The translations under genes and the position numbers were made by a program. This document shows positions 14,063-26,518 of a stretch of DNA of 64,000 bases, piece by piece. This stretch comes from a virus. The notes beneath the pieces were generated by a model. It made no database searches and had not been told where the DNA came from. It saw only the letters and a list, made by a program, of their open reading frames with translations. The stretch lies in the IMG/VR virus record IMGVR_UViG_3300025502_000011. The stretch is one strand, 5' to 3'. The first letter of the stretch is position 1, and every line of letters starts with the position of its first letter.

Positions 14063-14134
14063 AGGGGCGTAGGGGGTTCGAACCCCTGACGTACAGGGTT
14101 AAAGCCTGATGTTCTACCTCTGAACTAACGCCCC
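14063..14134 (-). tRNA. tRNA with anticodon UUA (ochre suppressor)
   Basis: GGGGCGT-TA-GTTC AGAGGTA GAAC-A-TCAGG CTTTAAC CCTGT-ACGTC-AGGGG TTCGAAC CCCCT-ACGCCCC-T; canonical cloverleaf with a 7-nt anticodon loop. Confidence 0.88.
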
Positions 14135-15510: not shown

Positions 15511-16019
15511 TTCTTGATTCGGATTATAGCTGAGGGTACAGTTTTGTAATCCTCAACAAATGAATAATCTGGGACCATTGTCACGGAGTAGTTCTTATCT
15601 TGAAGCCACTCACGGAATTCTTTGTGCAGTTAAGTCTCTCCAACCATCCAAAAAGGAGATGTTAAGCTTGAGATTGTTCCGCCTGGTGCAAGTTGGTCAT
15701 ACATGTGCATGATGTGTTTGCAATCGACATTGTCTCGAAAGTTAGGACAGGCAATGACGTAATCATATGGTGTCTGGGCTTCGAATCGGAAGAAGTCTGA
15801 GCCAACCAACTCATATTCTTTTTCTTTCAGTGTGACTCGGCATTCTTGATTAAGTTCTACACAGTCAATTTTACACTGTTGGAATTTTTCTTGAACCCCG
15901 TCCGCCAATACTCCTGTGCCTGCAGATGGTTCTAGTATTCTCGCTCCAGGCTTCGGGTTTAATCTCTCACATAAAGCATCAATCACCACTTGGGGTGTAA
16001 TTCTGTTTGTCTCTACCAT
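15507..16019 (-). CDS. SAM-dependent methyltransferase with an internal in-frame TAA (15630-15632)
   Basis: ILEPSAGTG, VELN, ACPNF; past the TAA the frame continues LHKEFREWL...VPDYSFVED..TVPSAIIRIKK to a TGA overlapping the next ATG. Confidence 0.8.
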
Positions 16020-16041
16020 AGCTTTCGTTTTTTTTATTGTT

Positions 16042-16132
16042 TGGTGAACGGAATAGGAATCGAACCTACAACTTTTCTTATGGCCGCTAAGCCATCTAGT
16101 TTTGCGCCTTCCATCCTTTTAAGTACTCGTTC
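16042..16132 (-). tRNA. Degenerate tRNA-like gene with encoded CCA
   Basis: T-arm GTAGG TTCGATT CCTAT, acceptor GAACGAG/TCCGTTC, ACCA end; no canonical anticodon arm could be resolved. Confidence 0.4.
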
Positions 16133-16173
16133 GAACATTTCCTTAAAAATCTTGGTGCAATCCGCCCATGTTG

Positions 16174-16225
16174 TGGCGTGGGGAGAAACGAATCTCACGC
16201 GAATCTTCTTTCAGATTCTCACGCC
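16174..16225 (-). ncRNA. Mini tRNA-like RNA, family B copy 1
   Basis: GGCGTG-AGAATCT gaaaga AGATTCGC-GTGAGA TTCGTT TCTCCC-CACGCC-A. Confidence 0.65.
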
Positions 16226-16285
16226 ATGTGGGGGAAGTTGTTTATGAGAACAGCGCCTCCCCAAGCATCTCACTGCTCATTATAA

Positions 16286-16452
16286 TGGTCCCGCGAGAGG
16301 GTTCTGCCCCCCATCATTTCTTCAACATCAACTACTAACTCACTCTTGTGGCCACGCAAGTGAGTTTTTGTGTTTGCATCCCGAACTGAGTCCTTTCGGT
16401 TCGTCTTCCACATTATCAGTGTGGTGCTTTAACATATCTAAGCTATCGCAGG
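16286..16452 (-). tRNA. tRNA-Ile(GAU) with a ~90-nt insertion in the variable region
   Basis: CCTGCGA/TCGCGGG acceptor plus ACCA, intact CCACA CTGATAA TGTGG arm, non-canonical T-loop (GCAGAA). Confidence 0.65.
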
Positions 16453-16458
16453 AAATTG

Positions 16459-16601
16459 TCCTGGAGGAAGGGCTCGAACCCCCGACCCCCACCGTTCGAT
16501 TCCAATTCTCTACTTCACAACCCTTGTGGCCACGCAGGTTGCGTTTCAATCCTTTTCCTCATTTATCAGGGTGGTGCTCTAACCAACTGAGCTACTCCAG
16601 G
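16459..16601 (-). tRNA. tRNA-Ile(GAU) with a 69-nt insertion at position 37/38
   Basis: CCTGGAG/CTCCAGG acceptor and canonical D and T arms; removing 16495-16563 restores CCACC CTGATAC GGTGG. Confidence 0.8.
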
Positions 16602-16605
16602 AAGT

Positions 16606-16650
16606 GCCGCTAACAGGAATCTCACCTATTCTAGTGCTAATGCAAGCGGC
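16606..16650 (-). ncRNA. Mini tRNA-like RNA, family A copy 1
   Basis: GCCGCT-TGCATTAGCACTAG-AATAGG TGAGATT CCTGTT-AGCGGC. Confidence 0.75.
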
Positions 16651-16651
16651 G

Positions 16652-16731
16652 TGGTGGTGAGGGAAGGACTTGAACCTTCGACCTCCAGGGTTTTAAAGCC
16701 TGGTGCTCTGAACCAACTGAGCTACCTCACC
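16652..16731 (-). tRNA. tRNA with a 9-nt anticodon loop (CUUUAAAAC)
   Basis: GGTGAGG/CCTCACC-A-CCA; CCAGG CTTTAAAAC CCTGG; canonical D and T arms. Confidence 0.8.
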
Positions 16732-16735
16732 AAGA

Positions 16736-16780
16736 GGCCCCAGGAAGACTTTCTCTTCCTCTAGTGCTAATGCAGGGGCC
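16736..16780 (-). ncRNA. Mini tRNA-like RNA, family A copy 2
   Basis: GGCCCC-TGCATTAGCACTAG-AGGAAG AGAAAGT CTTCCT-GGGGCC. Confidence 0.75.
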
Positions 16781-16781
16781 G

Positions 16782-16835
16782 TGGTGGCGTGGGAAGAAAC
16801 GAATCTCCCGCGAATCCCTAATGGACTCTCACGCC
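16782..16835 (-). ncRNA. Mini tRNA-like RNA, family B copy 2 (CCA encoded)
   Basis: GGCGTG-AGAGTCC atta GGGATTCGC-GGGAGA TTCGTT TCTTCC-CACGCC-ACCA. Confidence 0.7.
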
Positions 16836-16871
16836 TTTTTTAAATTCCAACACGTCAATGAACTTTTGTTG

Positions 16872-16945
16872 TGACAGGAGAAAGATTCGAACTCTCGTCC
16901 CCAGGTTTTTAAGGCCTGGTGCTCTAACCGCTGAGCTATCCCGTC
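16872..16945 (-). tRNA. tRNA with a 9-nt anticodon loop (CCUUAAAAA)
   Basis: GACGGGA/TCCTGTC-A; CCAGG CCTTAAAAA CCTGG; T-arm GAGAG TTCGAAT CTTTC. Confidence 0.8.
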
Positions 16946-16994
16946 TGGTGGCGGATTCAGGACTTTAACCTGAACTGGTGCTTATGCATCCGCC
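16946..16994 (-). ncRNA. Mini tRNA-like RNA, family A copy 3 (CCA encoded)
   Basis: GGCGGA-TGCATAAGCACCAG-TTCAGG TTAAAGT CCTGAA-TCCGCC-ACCA; its CCA abuts G1 of the next tRNA. Confidence 0.8.
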
Positions 16995-16998
16995 GTAG

Positions 16999-17045
16999 TG
17001 GTGCGGGGACAATCGAATGTCCCATGAGCCAAAAGCTCTCGCACC
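16999..17045 (-). ncRNA. Mini tRNA-like RNA, family B copy 3
   Basis: GGTGCG-AGAGC ttttg GCTCAT-GGGACA TTCGAT TGTCCC-CGCACC-A. Confidence 0.7.
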
Positions 17046-17066
17046 GTGATATGGAAACCTGCATCA

Positions 17067-17486
17067 TCATGCGGCTTCTTTACAATTACAACTCTTGAGA
17101 GTTGGTTGATTCGTAAATTCTTTGAAAGCAAGTGGTAGACTAGATAACCAACGGGCAGATTCTTTCCCTGGTTCTACGGTAATAGACGTGAACTGGTTGT
17201 CGAGGTCAGGCTCCTGGAAGGAACTGAAATTAATACCTTTTTGCGTGAGTTTGTCTCGGAGCTCGATGAGTTCTTGCTCGTCTTTGACTGATAAGAATCC
17301 TAAATATGGATTCGATAACCATTTTTCATAAATGGCTGTGTATTCTTGATTGAATACGTGGAATGAATGCATTCCTTGAGTTGCCTGCGCTCCAGGAGCG
17401 AGGTCTCGTCTTACGACGATGTAAAGCTTTAAGTTTTTCTTCTCTGTAGAAGGGTGTACTTACTGGTTGTCTAATGCTTTTTTCAT
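17067..17486 (-). CDS. Peptidyl-tRNA hydrolase II (PTH2)-like protein with an in-frame TAA at codon 9
   Basis: MKKALDNQ*VHPSTEKKNLKLYIVVRRDLAPGAQATQGMH...LSVKDEQEL...FQEPDLDNQFTSITV; ends TGA TGA. Confidence 0.8.
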
Positions 17487-24495: not shown

Positions 24496-26518
24496 TCGTA
24501 TTTCTTTTTTGGATAAACACCTTTTTATCTTTCTCTCTATAAGAGAAGGTTATTGAGGCTCCTTCTTTTATTTCGCCCTTGAGGACAGCTTGCGCAAAAG
24601 TGTTCTCCAAATGTGATGTTATAGCTCTTTTAAGGGGTCTTGCTCCAAACTTCTTATCATAACCTACGTCTGCTATGAAATCTTTCACACTGTCTGACAC
24701 TTTAACCTTATAACCTCTTTGTTCAATTCTGCTTATAACAACTTGTAGTTCCAAGCTAACAATGTCCATTATCTCGTCCTTTGTAAGTGGCATGAAGATT
24801 ATTTTCTCGTCAATGCGGTTGATTAGCTCTGGTCTGAAAAAATTTCCAAGCTCTCCCATGATAAGTTTCTCAATATCTTCTTGCTCTGTTTCTTTTGCAG
24901 CAAATCCAAGTGATTTATTCTTAAACAGCTTATCAGTTCCAATATTTGATGTCATAATGATGACAGTGTTTTTAAAGTTAATCTCTTGCCCATGATTATC
25001 CGTCAGTTTGCCTTCGTCAAAAATTTGAAGCATAATATTGAATACGTCTGGATGCGCTTTCTCTATTTCATCAAACAATAGTATGGAGTAAGGTTGGTTC
25101 TTAATTTTTTCAGTCAACAAACCCTTGTCTTCATGGCCAATGTAACCAGGGGGAGACCCAATCAACTTAGCGACCGATATCTTCTCCATGTATTCACTCA
25201 TATCAAACCTAATGAAAGACTCTGGGAGGTCAAACATGTACTCAGCTAGCATTTTGCTTAAGTATGTCTTACCTACTCCTGTTGAACCTAAAAACAATAA
25301 AGATGCAATTGGTTTGTTTGGGTCCTGTATGCCTACGCGAGACCTTTGGACTGCCTCACAAATTTTTTCAATAGCTACTTTCTGTCCGATGACTCTATCT
25401 GAAAGGTATGTTTGCATTTTCAAGAGCTTATTGCTTTCATTATCTGTAAGCTTAGACACAGGTATACCTGTGTGGGATGCGATGATTGCTGCTACGTCTT
25501 TTTTTGTGATAGGTTGTTTGTCATCTTTTAAGGACTGCTTCCATTTTTCAGTCATATTCTGGATGTTCTGCTTAGTGCTTCGCTCTTTATCGCGAAGTTT
25601 TGCTGCGACTTCATATTGCTGCTTCGCTACGGCTTTTTTCTTATCTTGTTCAATCTCTTGAAGACCTTCTTCGGCATCTTTTAGGTCTTTAGGTATTTCT
25701 CTAAATCCAAGCTTTGCTTTTGAGCCGACTTCATCTAAGACATCTATTGCTTTATCTGGGAAATTCCTGTAGTTAATATATCTATCTGACAGCTCAACTA
25801 TAAATTCTAATGTTTCGTCTGAAAATGATACGCCGTGATAATCTTCATAGCGTTCCTTTATTTGTTTTAGAATTTCAACCGTCTGCTTCGCAGTTGGAAC
25901 CGACAGCATGACTTTCTGAAATCTTCTATCAAGCGCTGAGTCATTAGCAATTGTTTTTTTGTGTTCCTCTAAAGTTGTTGCTCCAATAACACGCATTGTA
26001 CCACGAGCTAGCTCTGGTTTAATGATTTGAGATGCATCCATTGAACCAGATGCACCACCAGCTCCCATGAGATTGTGAATTTCATCAATAAATATGATAA
26101 CATCGTCATTTTTTACTGCTTCGTCAATAATAGCCTTCATTCGCTCTTCGAACTGGCCACGGTACTTTGTTCCTCCGACCAAGGAGGACAAATTTAATTC
26201 AATAATTCTTTTATTGAGTAACCATCTATCAGTTTTGCGATTTACGATTCGCAAAGCCAGCCCTTCGACTAATGCTGTTTTTCCTGTTCCAGCCTCTCCT
26301 ACGATTATGGGGTTATTCTTCTTTCTTTTGTTGAGAATTTGGACCATCATGTCGATTTCTTCTTCTCGCCCTATTACAGGGTCGAGTTCTCCTTTTGCTG
26401 CTAGCAGCGTTAGGTCTCTACCAAAATGTTCTAATACCTGCGTGGAACCCTCTGTGAAAGAAGGGCCCATCCCTTTTTCATCGTCATCAGGGTCTTGAGA
26501 AAATGCTCGTCCTGCCAT
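24473..26518 (-). CDS. clpB: ClpB/ClpC-type double AAA+ ATPase lacking the N-terminal Clp-N domain
   Basis: LDPVIGR, GEAGTGKT, KYRGQFEERMK, FIDEIH, GSTGVGKT, LFDEIEKAH, GARPLKR. Confidence 0.9.
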   Translation of the reverse strand: MAGRAFSQDPDDDEKGMGPSFTEGSTQVLEHFGRDLTLLAAKGELDPVIGREEEIDMMVQILNKRKKNNPIIVGEAGTGKTALVEGLALRIVNRKTDRWLLNKRIIELNLSSLVGGTKYRGQFEERMKAIIDEAVKNDDVIIFIDEIHNLMGAGGASGSMDASQIIKPELARGTMRVIGATTLEEHKKTIANDSALDRRFQKVMLSVPTAKQTVEILKQIKERYEDYHGVSFSDETLEFIVELSDRYINYRNFPDKAIDVLDEVGSKAKLGFREIPKDLKDAEEGLQEIEQDKKKAVAKQQYEVAAKLRDKERSTKQNIQNMTEKWKQSLKDDKQPITKKDVAAIIASHTGIPVSKLTDNESNKLLKMQTYLSDRVIGQKVAIEKICEAVQRSRVGIQDPNKPIASLLFLGSTGVGKTYLSKMLAEYMFDLPESFIRFDMSEYMEKISVAKLIGSPPGYIGHEDKGLLTEKIKNQPYSILLFDEIEKAHPDVFNIMLQIFDEGKLTDNHGQEINFKNTVIIMTSNIGTDKLFKNKSLGFAAKETEQEDIEKLIMGELGNFFRPELINRIDEKIIFMPLTKDEIMDIVSLELQVVISRIEQRGYKVKVSDSVKDFIADVGYDKKFGARPLKRAITSHLENTFAQAVLKGEIKEGASITFSYREKDKKVFIQKRNTNAKNKAE

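What the first reader, a model, noticed from the sequence alone, without database searches (positions are those of the whole stretch)
16652..16945. Two tRNAs with 9-nt anticodon loops related to the UUA suppressor
Both have the stem CCAGG/CCTGG (the suppressor has TCAGG/CCTGT). Their loops are CUUUAAAAC and CCUUAAAAA; removing AA from the first gives exactly the suppressor loop CUUUAAC. The bodies differ, so the enlarged loop is retained independently. They could be frameshift or extended-codon decoders at UAA, precursors trimmed and religated to 7 nt, or nuclease decoys.
Basis: partly seen in the sequence, partly recalled or inferred. Interest (0 to 1): 0.72.

Follow-up and report, generated by a model that had tools for sequence, protein, structure and literature searches.

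The report
Phage tRNAs with nine-base anticodon loops
Two tRNA genes of a salt-lake jumbo phage have nine unpaired bases in the anticodon loop instead of seven, and related phages keep this; the conserved core looks like a leucine (UUA/UUG) anticodon, not a stop-codon or four-base reader, but whether they decode or act as tRNA look-alikes is still open.

Summary
Two minus-strand tRNA genes (16945..16872 and 16731..16655) fold into cloverleaves with a 5-bp anticodon stem and a 9-nt loop. Contigs assembled separately from four salt-lake runs are identical, so this is not a homopolymer error. Diverged relatives keep the 9-nt loop, and the loop-closing base pair shows a compensatory change.

Six loop variants give the consensus N-N-U-Y-A-A-A-N-N. 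That is a normal 7-nt core (U33, anticodon UAA or CAA, A37) flanked by a layer that never pairs (C.A, C.C or U.C). The core of tRNA-A matches the loop of an ordinary jumbo-phage tRNA-Leu(UAA). TTA is the phage's commonest leucine codon, and TTA/TTG align with conserved Leu in its ribonucleotide reductase.

I found no sign of 4- or 5-base codons, and no conserved U33 for the UUA (ochre) register. The bodies are not suppressor-like.

Two things argue against a plain tRNA-Leu. The bodies lack the long variable arm. The genes also sit in an array of anticodon-less mini-tRNAs, and in sister phages both lineages occur as conserved arm-less copies.

Best reading: UUR-reading tRNAs with a deliberately altered anticodon arm (0.45). 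Main rival: non-decoding tRNA mimics (0.3). First readers noted the same pair on two near-identical genomes.

The parts
16872..16945 (-). tRNA-A: class I tRNA-shaped gene, discriminator A, no encoded CCA. It has purine 26, the 5-bp anticodon stem CCAGG/CCUGG and the 9-nt loop CCUUAAAAA.
   Evidence: ARAGORN; Rfam tRNA 59.2 bits; cloverleaf minimum-energy fold; covariation with homologues
16906..16914 (-). Anticodon loop of tRNA-A: C | C-U-UAA-A-A | A. This is a C.A layer around a canonical 7-nt core.
   Evidence: Sequence. The core CUUAAAA is identical to the loop of the class II tRNA-Leu(UAA) in L157.
16652..16731 (-). tRNA-B: class I tRNA-shaped gene with encoded CCA, discriminator A, stem CCAGG/CCUGG and the 9-nt loop CUUUAAAAC.
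   Evidence: ARAGORN; Rfam tRNA 68.8 bits; fold; covariation
16690..16698 (-). Anticodon loop of tRNA-B: C | U-U-UAA-A-A | C. This is a C.C layer around a 7-nt core.
   Evidence: Sequence; homologue loops UGUUAAAAC and CGUCAAACA
14063..14134 (-). Comparator: canonical ochre suppressor tRNA (anticodon UUA, 7-nt loop CUUUAAC, stem UCAGG/CCUGU).
   Evidence: ARAGORN; Rfam 66.2 bits. In L195 its orthologue occupies the slot of tRNA-A.
17067..17486 (-). Context: Pth2-like gene with an in-frame TAA at codon 10, directly upstream of the tRNA array. It was used to fetch related loci.
   Evidence: The TAA is conserved in L117, L119, L121, L122, L123 and L176.
16950..17045 (-). Context: two anticodon-less minihelices directly upstream of tRNA-A. 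The ACCA end of the second abuts G1 of tRNA-A. The same trio (minihelix, minihelix, tRNA) is repeated before tRNA-B at about 16737-16835.
   Evidence: Sequence. The same order is seen in L119, L121, L176, L194 and L195.

Best explanation
The two genes encode real, selectively maintained tRNA-shaped RNAs whose anticodon arm is one layer longer than normal. Each has purine 26, five Watson-Crick or G.U pairs, one layer that never pairs (C.A, C.C or U.C), and then an ordinary 7-nt core with U33, anticodon UAA (CAA in one relative), A37 and A38. Most likely they still work in translation as readers of the leucine codons UUA/UUG, which are the phage's most used leucine codons. The altered arm (mismatch-closed, one layer longer, no long variable arm) would make them differ from the host's tRNA-Leu at the place where defence nucleases cut. 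Shown here: the structure, its conservation, the register of the conserved core, and that UUR means Leu in this phage. Inferred: that they are charged (with Leu), that they are used by the ribosome, and that the odd arm serves to escape host nucleases.
For: Structure and conservation.

Register: across six distinct loops, roughly seven to eight substitutions fall only at loop positions 1, 2, 4, 8 and 9. None falls at U(3) or AAA(5-7). If changes hit the nine positions evenly, (5/9)^7 is about 0.02; this is my arithmetic on a small sample. The one change inside the triplet is at the wobble base, U to C, which stays within the Leu UUR box.

Canonical core: the core CUUAAAA of tRNA-A equals the loop of a class II tRNA-Leu(UAA) of another jumbo phage (L157).

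Shared design: a mismatch layer around a canonical 7-nt core (C|CUCUAAA|A, C|UUCUAAA|C, A|UUCUAAA|C) occurs in 12 of 42 distinct stop-suppressor tRNAs in 51 Pth2 loci of other jumbo phages, against 3 of 123 other tRNAs. If those CUA tRNAs work as suppressors in their phages (not tested here), ribosomes accept an unpaired closing layer.

Demand: TTA is the commonest Leu codon (878 of 3158; TTG 568). TTA/TTG align with conserved Leu in the phage ribonucleotide reductase in 9 of 10 and 9 of 11 conserved columns.

Conflict context: the genome has an RNA ligase gene among its tRNA genes, and Acb3 and Ro60 lie nearby. Published defence nucleases cut the anticodon arm at 30/31 and 39-41 (PMC13056530), and phage tRNAs escape such nucleases by anticodon-loop changes (PMC10264068).
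Against: The bodies are class I (4-5-nt variable loop), unlike every bacterial tRNA-Leu. Nothing shows that LeuRS or any other synthetase charges them.

The arm is 19 nt (24-25 nt between the D and T stems, against 22-23 normally), so the anticodon may be displaced.

The genes are dispensable in the clade: L122, L123, L194 and L195 have no such tRNA. Both lineages also exist as conserved arm-less copies, and the arm-less A has a compensatory change in its remaining hairpin. This points to a role for the acceptor/T half alone.

A B-type body in L194 carries GCA in an 8-nt loop but keeps discriminator A73, which fits poorly with a translational identity.

The arm was not found in IMG/VR outside this clade.
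Confidence: 0.45

Rival explanations
1. They are non-decoding tRNA look-alikes that belong to the surrounding array of mini-tRNAs. Their acceptor/T half, and perhaps an anticodon-loop imitation of host tRNA-Leu, would bind or divert a tRNA-binding protein such as a defence nuclease or a tail-modifying toxin, without entering translation.
For: The genes sit in a repeated module (minihelix, minihelix, tRNA) inside an array of anticodon-less minihelices. Arm-less derivatives of both lineages are conserved in sister phages (A' in L121/L122 with a GCU/AGC to GUU/AAC compensatory change; B' in L194/L195). The same slot holds different tRNAs in different relatives: the UAA type, a GCA 8-nt type with A73, or the ochre suppressor. 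The class I body does not match Leu identity. The neighbours are counter-defence or RNA-binding genes: Acb3, Ro60 and a Pth2-like gene.
Against: The loop core U33-YAA-A37 is kept while its flanks vary, and the only triplet change is a synonymous wobble change. A pure acceptor-half function would not require this. No phage tRNA decoy came up in the papers I searched. The suppressor tRNAs that share the design are presumably decoders (not tested here).
Confidence: 0.3
2. They read the stop codon UAA (anticodon UUA at loop positions 3-5), or a 4- or 5-base codon such as UUAA, UUUA or UUUAA, as natural suppressor or frameshift tRNAs.
For: tRNA-B's loop is the suppressor loop plus AA, on the same 4-bp stem core. 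The mismatch-closed design is enriched in suppressor tRNAs. In L195 the ochre suppressor occupies the slot of tRNA-A. The adjacent Pth2-like gene is gated by an early TAA.
Against: The would-be U33 of that register is U, C, G, G or G. The TAA in Pth2 is in frame and needs no shift, and a canonical suppressor is present. TTA followed by A is as frequent (0.41) as for other NTA codons. Junctions that would need TTAA, TTTA, TAAA, TTTAA, TTTGA or TTAAA are within the background of all 4- and 5-mers: 0-4 each, against a maximum of 7-8. L121's change would turn ochre into opal although its Pth2 still uses TAA.
Confidence: 0.08
3. They are relics: former tRNAs whose anticodon arm is decaying on the way to the arm-less state, with no function of its own.
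For: Arms in this array are variable: 9 nt, 8 nt with a mismatched stem in L194, or absent. tRNA-B's loop changed at 4 of 9 positions between the window and L121, faster than the body.
Against: The 9-nt design is shared by two paralogues that are only about 70% alike, and by their homologues. The stem next to the loop has a compensatory G-C to A-U change, and all stem cells of the anticodon helix pair. The changes avoid the U33/A35-A37 core.
Confidence: 0.1
4. They are precursors from which two loop nucleotides are removed and the ends rejoined, to give a 7-nt loop.
For: The genome encodes an RNA ligase (PF09414) among its tRNA genes. Neighbouring Ile-type tRNAs carry large inserts at the loop.
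Against: Removing any two adjacent bases leaves a non-U at position 33 in most homologues, or destroys the shared core. No endonuclease candidate was found and there are no RNA data. No RtcB was found in the 141-kb record.
Confidence: 0.02

Closest known systems
Bacterial and phage tRNA-Leu(UAA), for example the class II tRNA-Leu(UAA) found here in jumbo-phage locus L157
   Same: Anticodon UAA with U33, A37 and A38 (core CUUAAAA identical for tRNA-A), discriminator A73, and the phage's need for UUA/UUG decoding.
   Different: No long variable arm (class I body). There is one extra non-pairing layer between the stem and the 7-nt core, giving 9 unpaired bases, and a 19-nt arm.
Stop-suppressor tRNAs (CUA) of stop-codon-recoded jumbo phages encoded next to Pth2-like genes (loci L124-L174 here)
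   Same: The 7-nt core is closed by a C.A, A.C or C.C mismatch, often with 26:44 paired, which gives a formal 5-bp stem plus 9-nt loop. The genes lie beside a Pth2-like gene.
   Different: Those arms have the normal total length (no separate purine 26) and carry a stop anticodon. The two tRNAs here keep purine 26 as well, so they are one layer longer, and they carry UAA/CAA.
Frameshift-suppressor tRNAs with enlarged loops (sufD, sufJ, SufB2; PMC4238358, PMC7803779) and engineered 9-nt-loop tRNAs for five-base codons (my own knowledge: Hohsaka 2001, Anderson 2002)
   Same: More than seven unpaired loop bases.
   Different: The extra bases here lie symmetrically outside an intact 7-nt core, not inside the anticodon. 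No matching 4- or 5-base sites were found in the genome.
Phage tRNAs that escape tRNA-cutting immunity (T5 tRNA-Lys versus PARIS, PMC11464382; the loop-mutation hypothesis, PMC10264068; retron evasion, PMC11555353)
   Same: A phage-encoded tRNA that differs from the host tRNA in the anticodon arm. An RNA ligase and counter-defence genes are in the genome.
   Different: The published cases are base substitutions in a 7-nt loop. An added layer or a change of body class has not been described, and no nuclease is known for this host.
tRNA-Sec and tRNA-Pyl (my own knowledge: 6-bp anticodon stems)
   Same: The anticodon helix is one layer longer than the standard five.
   Different: Their sixth layer is a true base pair and the rest of the body is remodelled. 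Here the sixth layer never pairs and the body is standard.
Yeast mitochondrial tRNA-Thr(UAG) with an 8-nt loop (my own knowledge)
   Same: A natural tRNA with an enlarged loop that still reads triplets.
   Different: It has one extra base, is organellar, and is tied to a codon reassignment.

Membership tests
tRNA (Rfam RF00005) | Cloverleaf with 7-bp acceptor, 4-bp D, 5-bp anticodon and 5-bp T stems, supported by covariation | tested here: met
   98.4% of cells pair, and 6 pairs change on both sides across six distinct sequences. Rfam scores are 59.2 and 68.8 bits against a gathering score of 29.
tRNA (Rfam RF00005) | T loop UUCRANY and G18G19 in the D loop | tested here: met
   The T loops are UUCGAAU and UUCAAGU. 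GG is present in both D loops.
tRNA (Rfam RF00005) | 7-nt anticodon loop closed by the 31:39 pair | tested here: not met
   Nine unpaired bases follow a 5-bp stem. The layer outside the 7-nt core is C.A, C.C or U.C in all six sequences.
Bacterial tRNA-Leu | Anticodon of the Leu box, preceded by U33 and followed by a purine at 37 | tested here: met
   U-UAA-A, or U-CAA-A in L121, in the central register. These positions do not vary.
Bacterial tRNA-Leu | Long variable arm (class II body) | tested here: not met
   The variable loop is 4-5 nt. Class II Leu tRNAs of other jumbo phages are 81-88 nt.
Bacterial tRNA-Leu | Discriminator A73 | tested here: met
   A follows the acceptor stem in all six sequences.
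Bacterial tRNA-Leu | Charged by LeuRS | not testable with these tools
   This needs an aminoacylation assay or charged-tRNA sequencing.
Ochre suppressor tRNA | Anticodon UUA preceded by U33 in a 7-nt loop | tested here: not met
   UUA can be read at loop positions 3-5, but the preceding base is U, C, G, G or G, and L121 has UCA there.
Extended-anticodon (frameshift-suppressor) tRNA | Genes that give whole proteins only if a matching 4- or 5-base codon is read | tested here: not met
   Candidate junctions at TTAA, TTTA, TAAA, TTTAA, TTTGA and TTAAA number 0-4 each, within the range of all k-mers. In-frame TTA|A is not avoided. This was a crude open-frame test, not a homology-based one.
Nuclease-evading phage tRNA | A cognate host tRNA is cut by a defence nuclease and the phage copy is resistant | not testable with these tools
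   The host and its nucleases are unknown. Only context is available: RNA ligase, Acb3, and the literature.

The most novel reading that the evidence does not exclude
The two RNAs, together with the mini-tRNAs around them, form a phage 'tRNA-mimic array'. In this reading the lengthened, mismatch-closed anticodon arm is a designed feature that lets the RNA imitate host tRNA-Leu(UAA) for a host anticodon-arm nuclease while not being cut, or not being needed. It would then act as a decoy, or as a nuclease-proof substitute built on a different body class. The repeated loss of the arm in sister phages would mark a shift of the conflict from the anticodon to the acceptor end.
Probability: 0.3. Interest if true: 0.75.

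Novelty: new variant of a known kind. Interest (0 to 1): 0.5.

Why it matters
Conserved natural tRNAs with nine unpaired anticodon-loop bases appear to be very rare; my literature searches found none in phages. These two have clear comparative support, two paralogues, and a defined set of natural variants: a 9-nt loop, an 8-nt loop, a 7-nt suppressor in the same slot, and arm-less copies.

If they decode, they show how much lengthening of the anticodon arm a bacterial ribosome tolerates, and they would be class I leucine tRNAs in a bacterial system. If they do not decode, they are candidates for RNA decoys in the conflict over tRNA-cutting immunity.

A side result is a testable rule for how phages build suppressor tRNAs: a mismatch at the loop-closing pair is about 16 times more likely (odds ratio) in phage stop-suppressor tRNAs than in their other tRNAs.

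Tried and rejected
Collection scans that found no relatives:
- The exact arm pattern in IMG/VR gave 0 hits.
- A looser arm pattern gave 9 hits, all chance matches inside coding sequence.
- The minihelix 15-mer gave 116 hits, all chance. The only double hit, L037, is a tail-fibre repeat.
- The Ile-insert pattern gave 0 hits.
- The single metagenome scan with the minihelix pattern gave one contig (L175). It starts downstream of the two tRNAs.
- A single-sequence search for Pth2 loci found nothing. The alignment-based search was needed.

RNA evidence: no listed run holding the stretch is on record as RNA. The laid runs are contigs only, so nothing can be said about expression, ends, trimming or modification.

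Assembly error: rejected. One 151-nt, low-depth contig in run X19 lies on 16662-16709 with 4 other letters and one base missing at 16695. It is a different, unidentified sequence.

Sense-codon reassignment of UUR: rejected, because TTA/TTG align with conserved Leu.

Special kinship with the suppressor through the shared stem: weak. A tRNA-Tyr of the same genome has the same CCAGG/CCUGG stem, and the bodies differ.

Other checks that gave nothing decisive:
- The Rfam E-value scan of 15950-17100 added only weak, sub-threshold hits.
- The promoter and terminator scan was at shuffle level.
- Literature searches found no description of natural phage tRNAs with 9-nt loops.
- RtcB and a CCA-adding enzyme were not found in the 141-kb record, which is about 64% complete, so absence is not shown.

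Full report
WHAT IS THERE. The window is part of a 141-kb IMG/VR record of an uncultured salt-lake phage. Its ribonucleotide reductase is about 70% identical to those of Bacteroidota. ARAGORN and the Rfam tRNA model both call two minus-strand tRNAs, at 16945..16872 (tRNA-A) and 16731..16655 (tRNA-B, with encoded CCA). Both have a standard acceptor stem, D arm and T arm, discriminator A, and a short variable loop. Both have purine 26, then the 5-bp stem CCAGG/CCUGG, then nine unpaired bases: CCUUAAAAA in A and CUUUAAAAC in B. The minimum-energy fold of each is that cloverleaf.

NOT AN ARTEFACT. The locus is letter-identical in an ENA and a JGI assembly (L117, L118). Twenty salt-lake runs hold the stretch. 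Contigs assembled from four of them cover 16400-17100 with no difference and no gap, at word depths from 4 to 78. These may include the source sample.

HOMOLOGUES. I found relatives through the Pth2-like gene just upstream and the methyltransferase gene just downstream. The loops found are:
- tRNA-A: CCUUAAAAA in L176/177/188/189 and CGUUAAAAA in L119/120.
- tRNA-B: UGUUAAAAC in L176/177/188/189 and CGUCAAACA in L121.

On the six distinct sequences, 98.4% of stem cells pair and six pairs change on both sides. The pair next to the loop switches G-C to A-U. The layer beyond it is C.A, C.A, C.A, C.C, U.C, C.A, which is never a standard pair. The nine-base loop is therefore an inherited, maintained feature of two paralogues that are only about 70% alike. 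A scan of IMG/VR for this arm found nothing outside the clade.

WHICH BASES ARE THE ANTICODON. The aligned loops read N-N-U-Y-A-A-A-N-N. All substitutions fall at positions 1, 2, 4, 8 and 9. The U at position 3 and the AAA at 5-7 never change. I compared three registers.
- Central register. This gives an ordinary core: position 32 variable, U33, anticodon UAA or CAA, A37, and A38 (C in one sequence). The single change within the triplet is at the wobble base and stays within the Leu UUR box.
The base before the anticodon would be U, C, G, G or G, and L121 would have turned ochre into opal. Yet its Pth2 gene still carries TAA.
- 3'-stacked register (AAA at positions 5-7). This would put C at position 33 in L121.

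The central register is the only one that keeps the universal loop features. The core of tRNA-A (CUUAAAA) is identical to the loop of a normal class II tRNA-Leu(UAA) in another jumbo phage (L157).

A SHARED DESIGN. In 51 Pth2-containing loci of other jumbo phages, many amber-suppressor tRNAs have the same build. A canonical 7-nt core is closed by C.A, A.C or C.C, often with 26:44 paired, so that formally they also show five pairs and nine unpaired bases. Among distinct sequences this occurs in 12 of 42 suppressors against 3 of 123 other tRNAs (Fisher p about 5e-6, not corrected for relatedness). If those CUA tRNAs work as suppressors in their phages, which I did not test, an unpaired closing layer is compatible with decoding. 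The two tRNAs here differ in keeping a separate purine 26 as well, so their arm is truly one layer longer: 24-25 nt between the D and T stems instead of 22-23.

DOES THE PHAGE NEED SUCH A tRNA? TTA is its commonest leucine codon (878 of 3158; TTG 568). In the phage ribonucleotide reductase, TTA and TTG codons sit on columns where bacterial homologues have conserved Leu, in 9 of 10 and 9 of 11 cases. UUR therefore means Leu, and a UUR reader would have to carry Leu.

NO SIGN OF LONGER CODONS. In-frame TTA is followed by A as often (0.41) as CTA, GTA or TCA are. Places where an open frame could continue only by reading TTAA, TTTA, TAAA, TTTAA, TTTGA or TTAAA as one codon number 0-4 each, within the spread of all 4- and 5-mers. 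The early TAA of the Pth2-like gene is in frame, and a canonical suppressor is available for it.

WHAT SPEAKS AGAINST A PLAIN tRNA-Leu. First, the bodies are class I. Their nearest relatives by sequence are Ile-, Asn- and Phe-type phage tRNAs and the Ile-type gene next door, not Leu tRNAs and not the suppressor. Second, the genes are embedded in a tight array of anticodon-less minihelices, arranged as a twice-repeated module of minihelix, minihelix, tRNA. Third, the slots vary among relatives:
- L119/120 lack tRNA-B.
- L121 and L122 carry tRNA-A as a 50-nt copy without any anticodon arm. Its remaining hairpin has a compensatory change between the two (GCU/AGC to GUU/AAC).
- L194 and L195 carry arm-less B copies.
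- L194 has, in slot A, a B-type body with an 8-nt loop holding GCA but with discriminator A.
- L195 has the ordinary ochre suppressor in slot A.
- L123 has neither tRNA.

The acceptor/T half of these RNAs therefore seems to have a role of its own, and the anticodon arm is optional within the clade.

CONTEXT. Near the array lie Ro60, a GIY-YIG gene, a nucleotidase-like gene and the CBASS inhibitor Acb3. Elsewhere in the record an RNA ligase gene sits among tRNA genes. Published work shows that bacterial defence nucleases cut the anticodon arm at 30/31 and 39-41 (PMC13056530). It also proposes that phage tRNAs escape such enzymes through anticodon-loop changes, though only substitutions are described there (PMC10264068).

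VERDICT. The link to the suppressor, and the extended-codon idea, are not supported.
- Best reading (0.45): UUA/UUG-reading tRNAs whose anticodon arm and body class have been made unlike the host's, plausibly to stay usable when host tRNA-Leu is attacked.
- Main rival (0.3): they do not decode but act as tRNA look-alikes together with the mini-tRNAs.
- Minor options: stop or long-codon reading (0.08), decaying arms (0.1), and trimming to 7 nt (0.02).

Sequence alone cannot separate the first two readings. Charged-tRNA sequencing and aminoacylation assays would. I found no description of such tRNAs in the literature searched. First readers of this scan noted the same pair on two near-identical genomes.

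Noticed in passing
L121:1430-1479 and L122:1488-1537: The positional homologue of tRNA-A is a roughly 50-nt tRNA without an anticodon arm (acceptor stem, small D-like hairpin, T arm). Between the two loci the hairpin changes GCU/AGC to GUU/AAC, so it is under structural selection.
   Followed up: partly
L194:720-767 and L195:643-698: These are arm-less derivatives of tRNA-B (acceptor GGCGAGA, with a B-like T arm) in the slot of tRNA-B. Both tRNA lineages therefore have mini-tRNA descendants.
   Followed up: partly
L194:564-638 and L195:502-573: The slot of tRNA-A holds other tRNAs in more distant relatives. L194 has a B-type body with an 8-nt loop CUGCAAAG (GCA, discriminator A, stem with a C.A mismatch). 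L195 has the canonical ochre suppressor (UUA, 7-nt loop). The slot behaves like a cassette position.
   Followed up: partly
L124-L174 (51 Pth2 loci of other jumbo phages): A mismatch at the loop-closing pair (C.A, A.C or C.C) occurs in 12 of 42 distinct stop-suppressor tRNAs but only 3 of 123 other tRNAs (Fisher p about 5e-6, not corrected for relatedness). tRNA-Cys(GCA) is very often the suppressor's neighbour.
   Followed up: partly
window 16950-17045 and 16737-16835 (minus strand): The module 'family-B minihelix, family-A minihelix, tRNA(UAA)' occurs twice. The ACCA end of the first family-A minihelix directly abuts G1 of tRNA-A, so RNase P cleavage would release a minihelix with a ready CCA end.
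   Followed up: no
window 16846-16870 (minus strand): A spacer motif, TTCATTGAC(G/A)T(G/A)TTGGAAT, lies between tRNA-A and the next minihelix. It is conserved in L119, L121, L122 and L176, and partly in L194/L195. It may be an internal promoter of the array.
   Followed up: no
window 16042-16167 (minus strand): The last element of the array is a roughly 126-nt tRNA-like RNA. Its acceptor stem GGGCGGA/UCCGUUC contains G2.U71 and G3.U70 (the alanine identity pair). It also has a T arm, an ACCA end and a long internal insert. Only a weak Rfam tRNA hit was found (23.3 bits).
   Followed up: partly
G000:C1:22202-22286 and 24683-24766 (outside the window): Two class II (long variable arm) tRNAs carry anticodons that do not fit their body. 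One is a Leu-like body with A73 and anticodon CCU (Arg codon AGG). The other has discriminator G and anticodon CCA, in a core closed by an A.C mismatch.
   Followed up: no
G000:C1:23555-24046 (outside the window): An RNA ligase gene (PF09414, 78 bits) lies between tRNA genes. This suggests tRNA repair, as in T4.
   Followed up: no
L178:5570-5649: In a more distant Pth2 locus, a tRNA-shaped gene next to the amber suppressor has a 9-bp anticodon stem (UUUAAAGUU/AACUUUAAA) and a 6-nt loop GACAAC.
   Followed up: no
L157:3349-3423 and L174:2383-2457: Other jumbo phages also carry class I-sized (75-nt) tRNAs with Leu-box anticodons (UAG, CAA). The L174 one also has two bases between the D and anticodon stems.
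   Followed up: no
window 16662-16709: In run X19, a 151-nt contig of depth 2.9 matches this part of tRNA-B with 4 other letters and one base missing at 16695, inside the loop. It may be a relative with an 8-nt loop. The contig sequence itself was not available.
   Followed up: no
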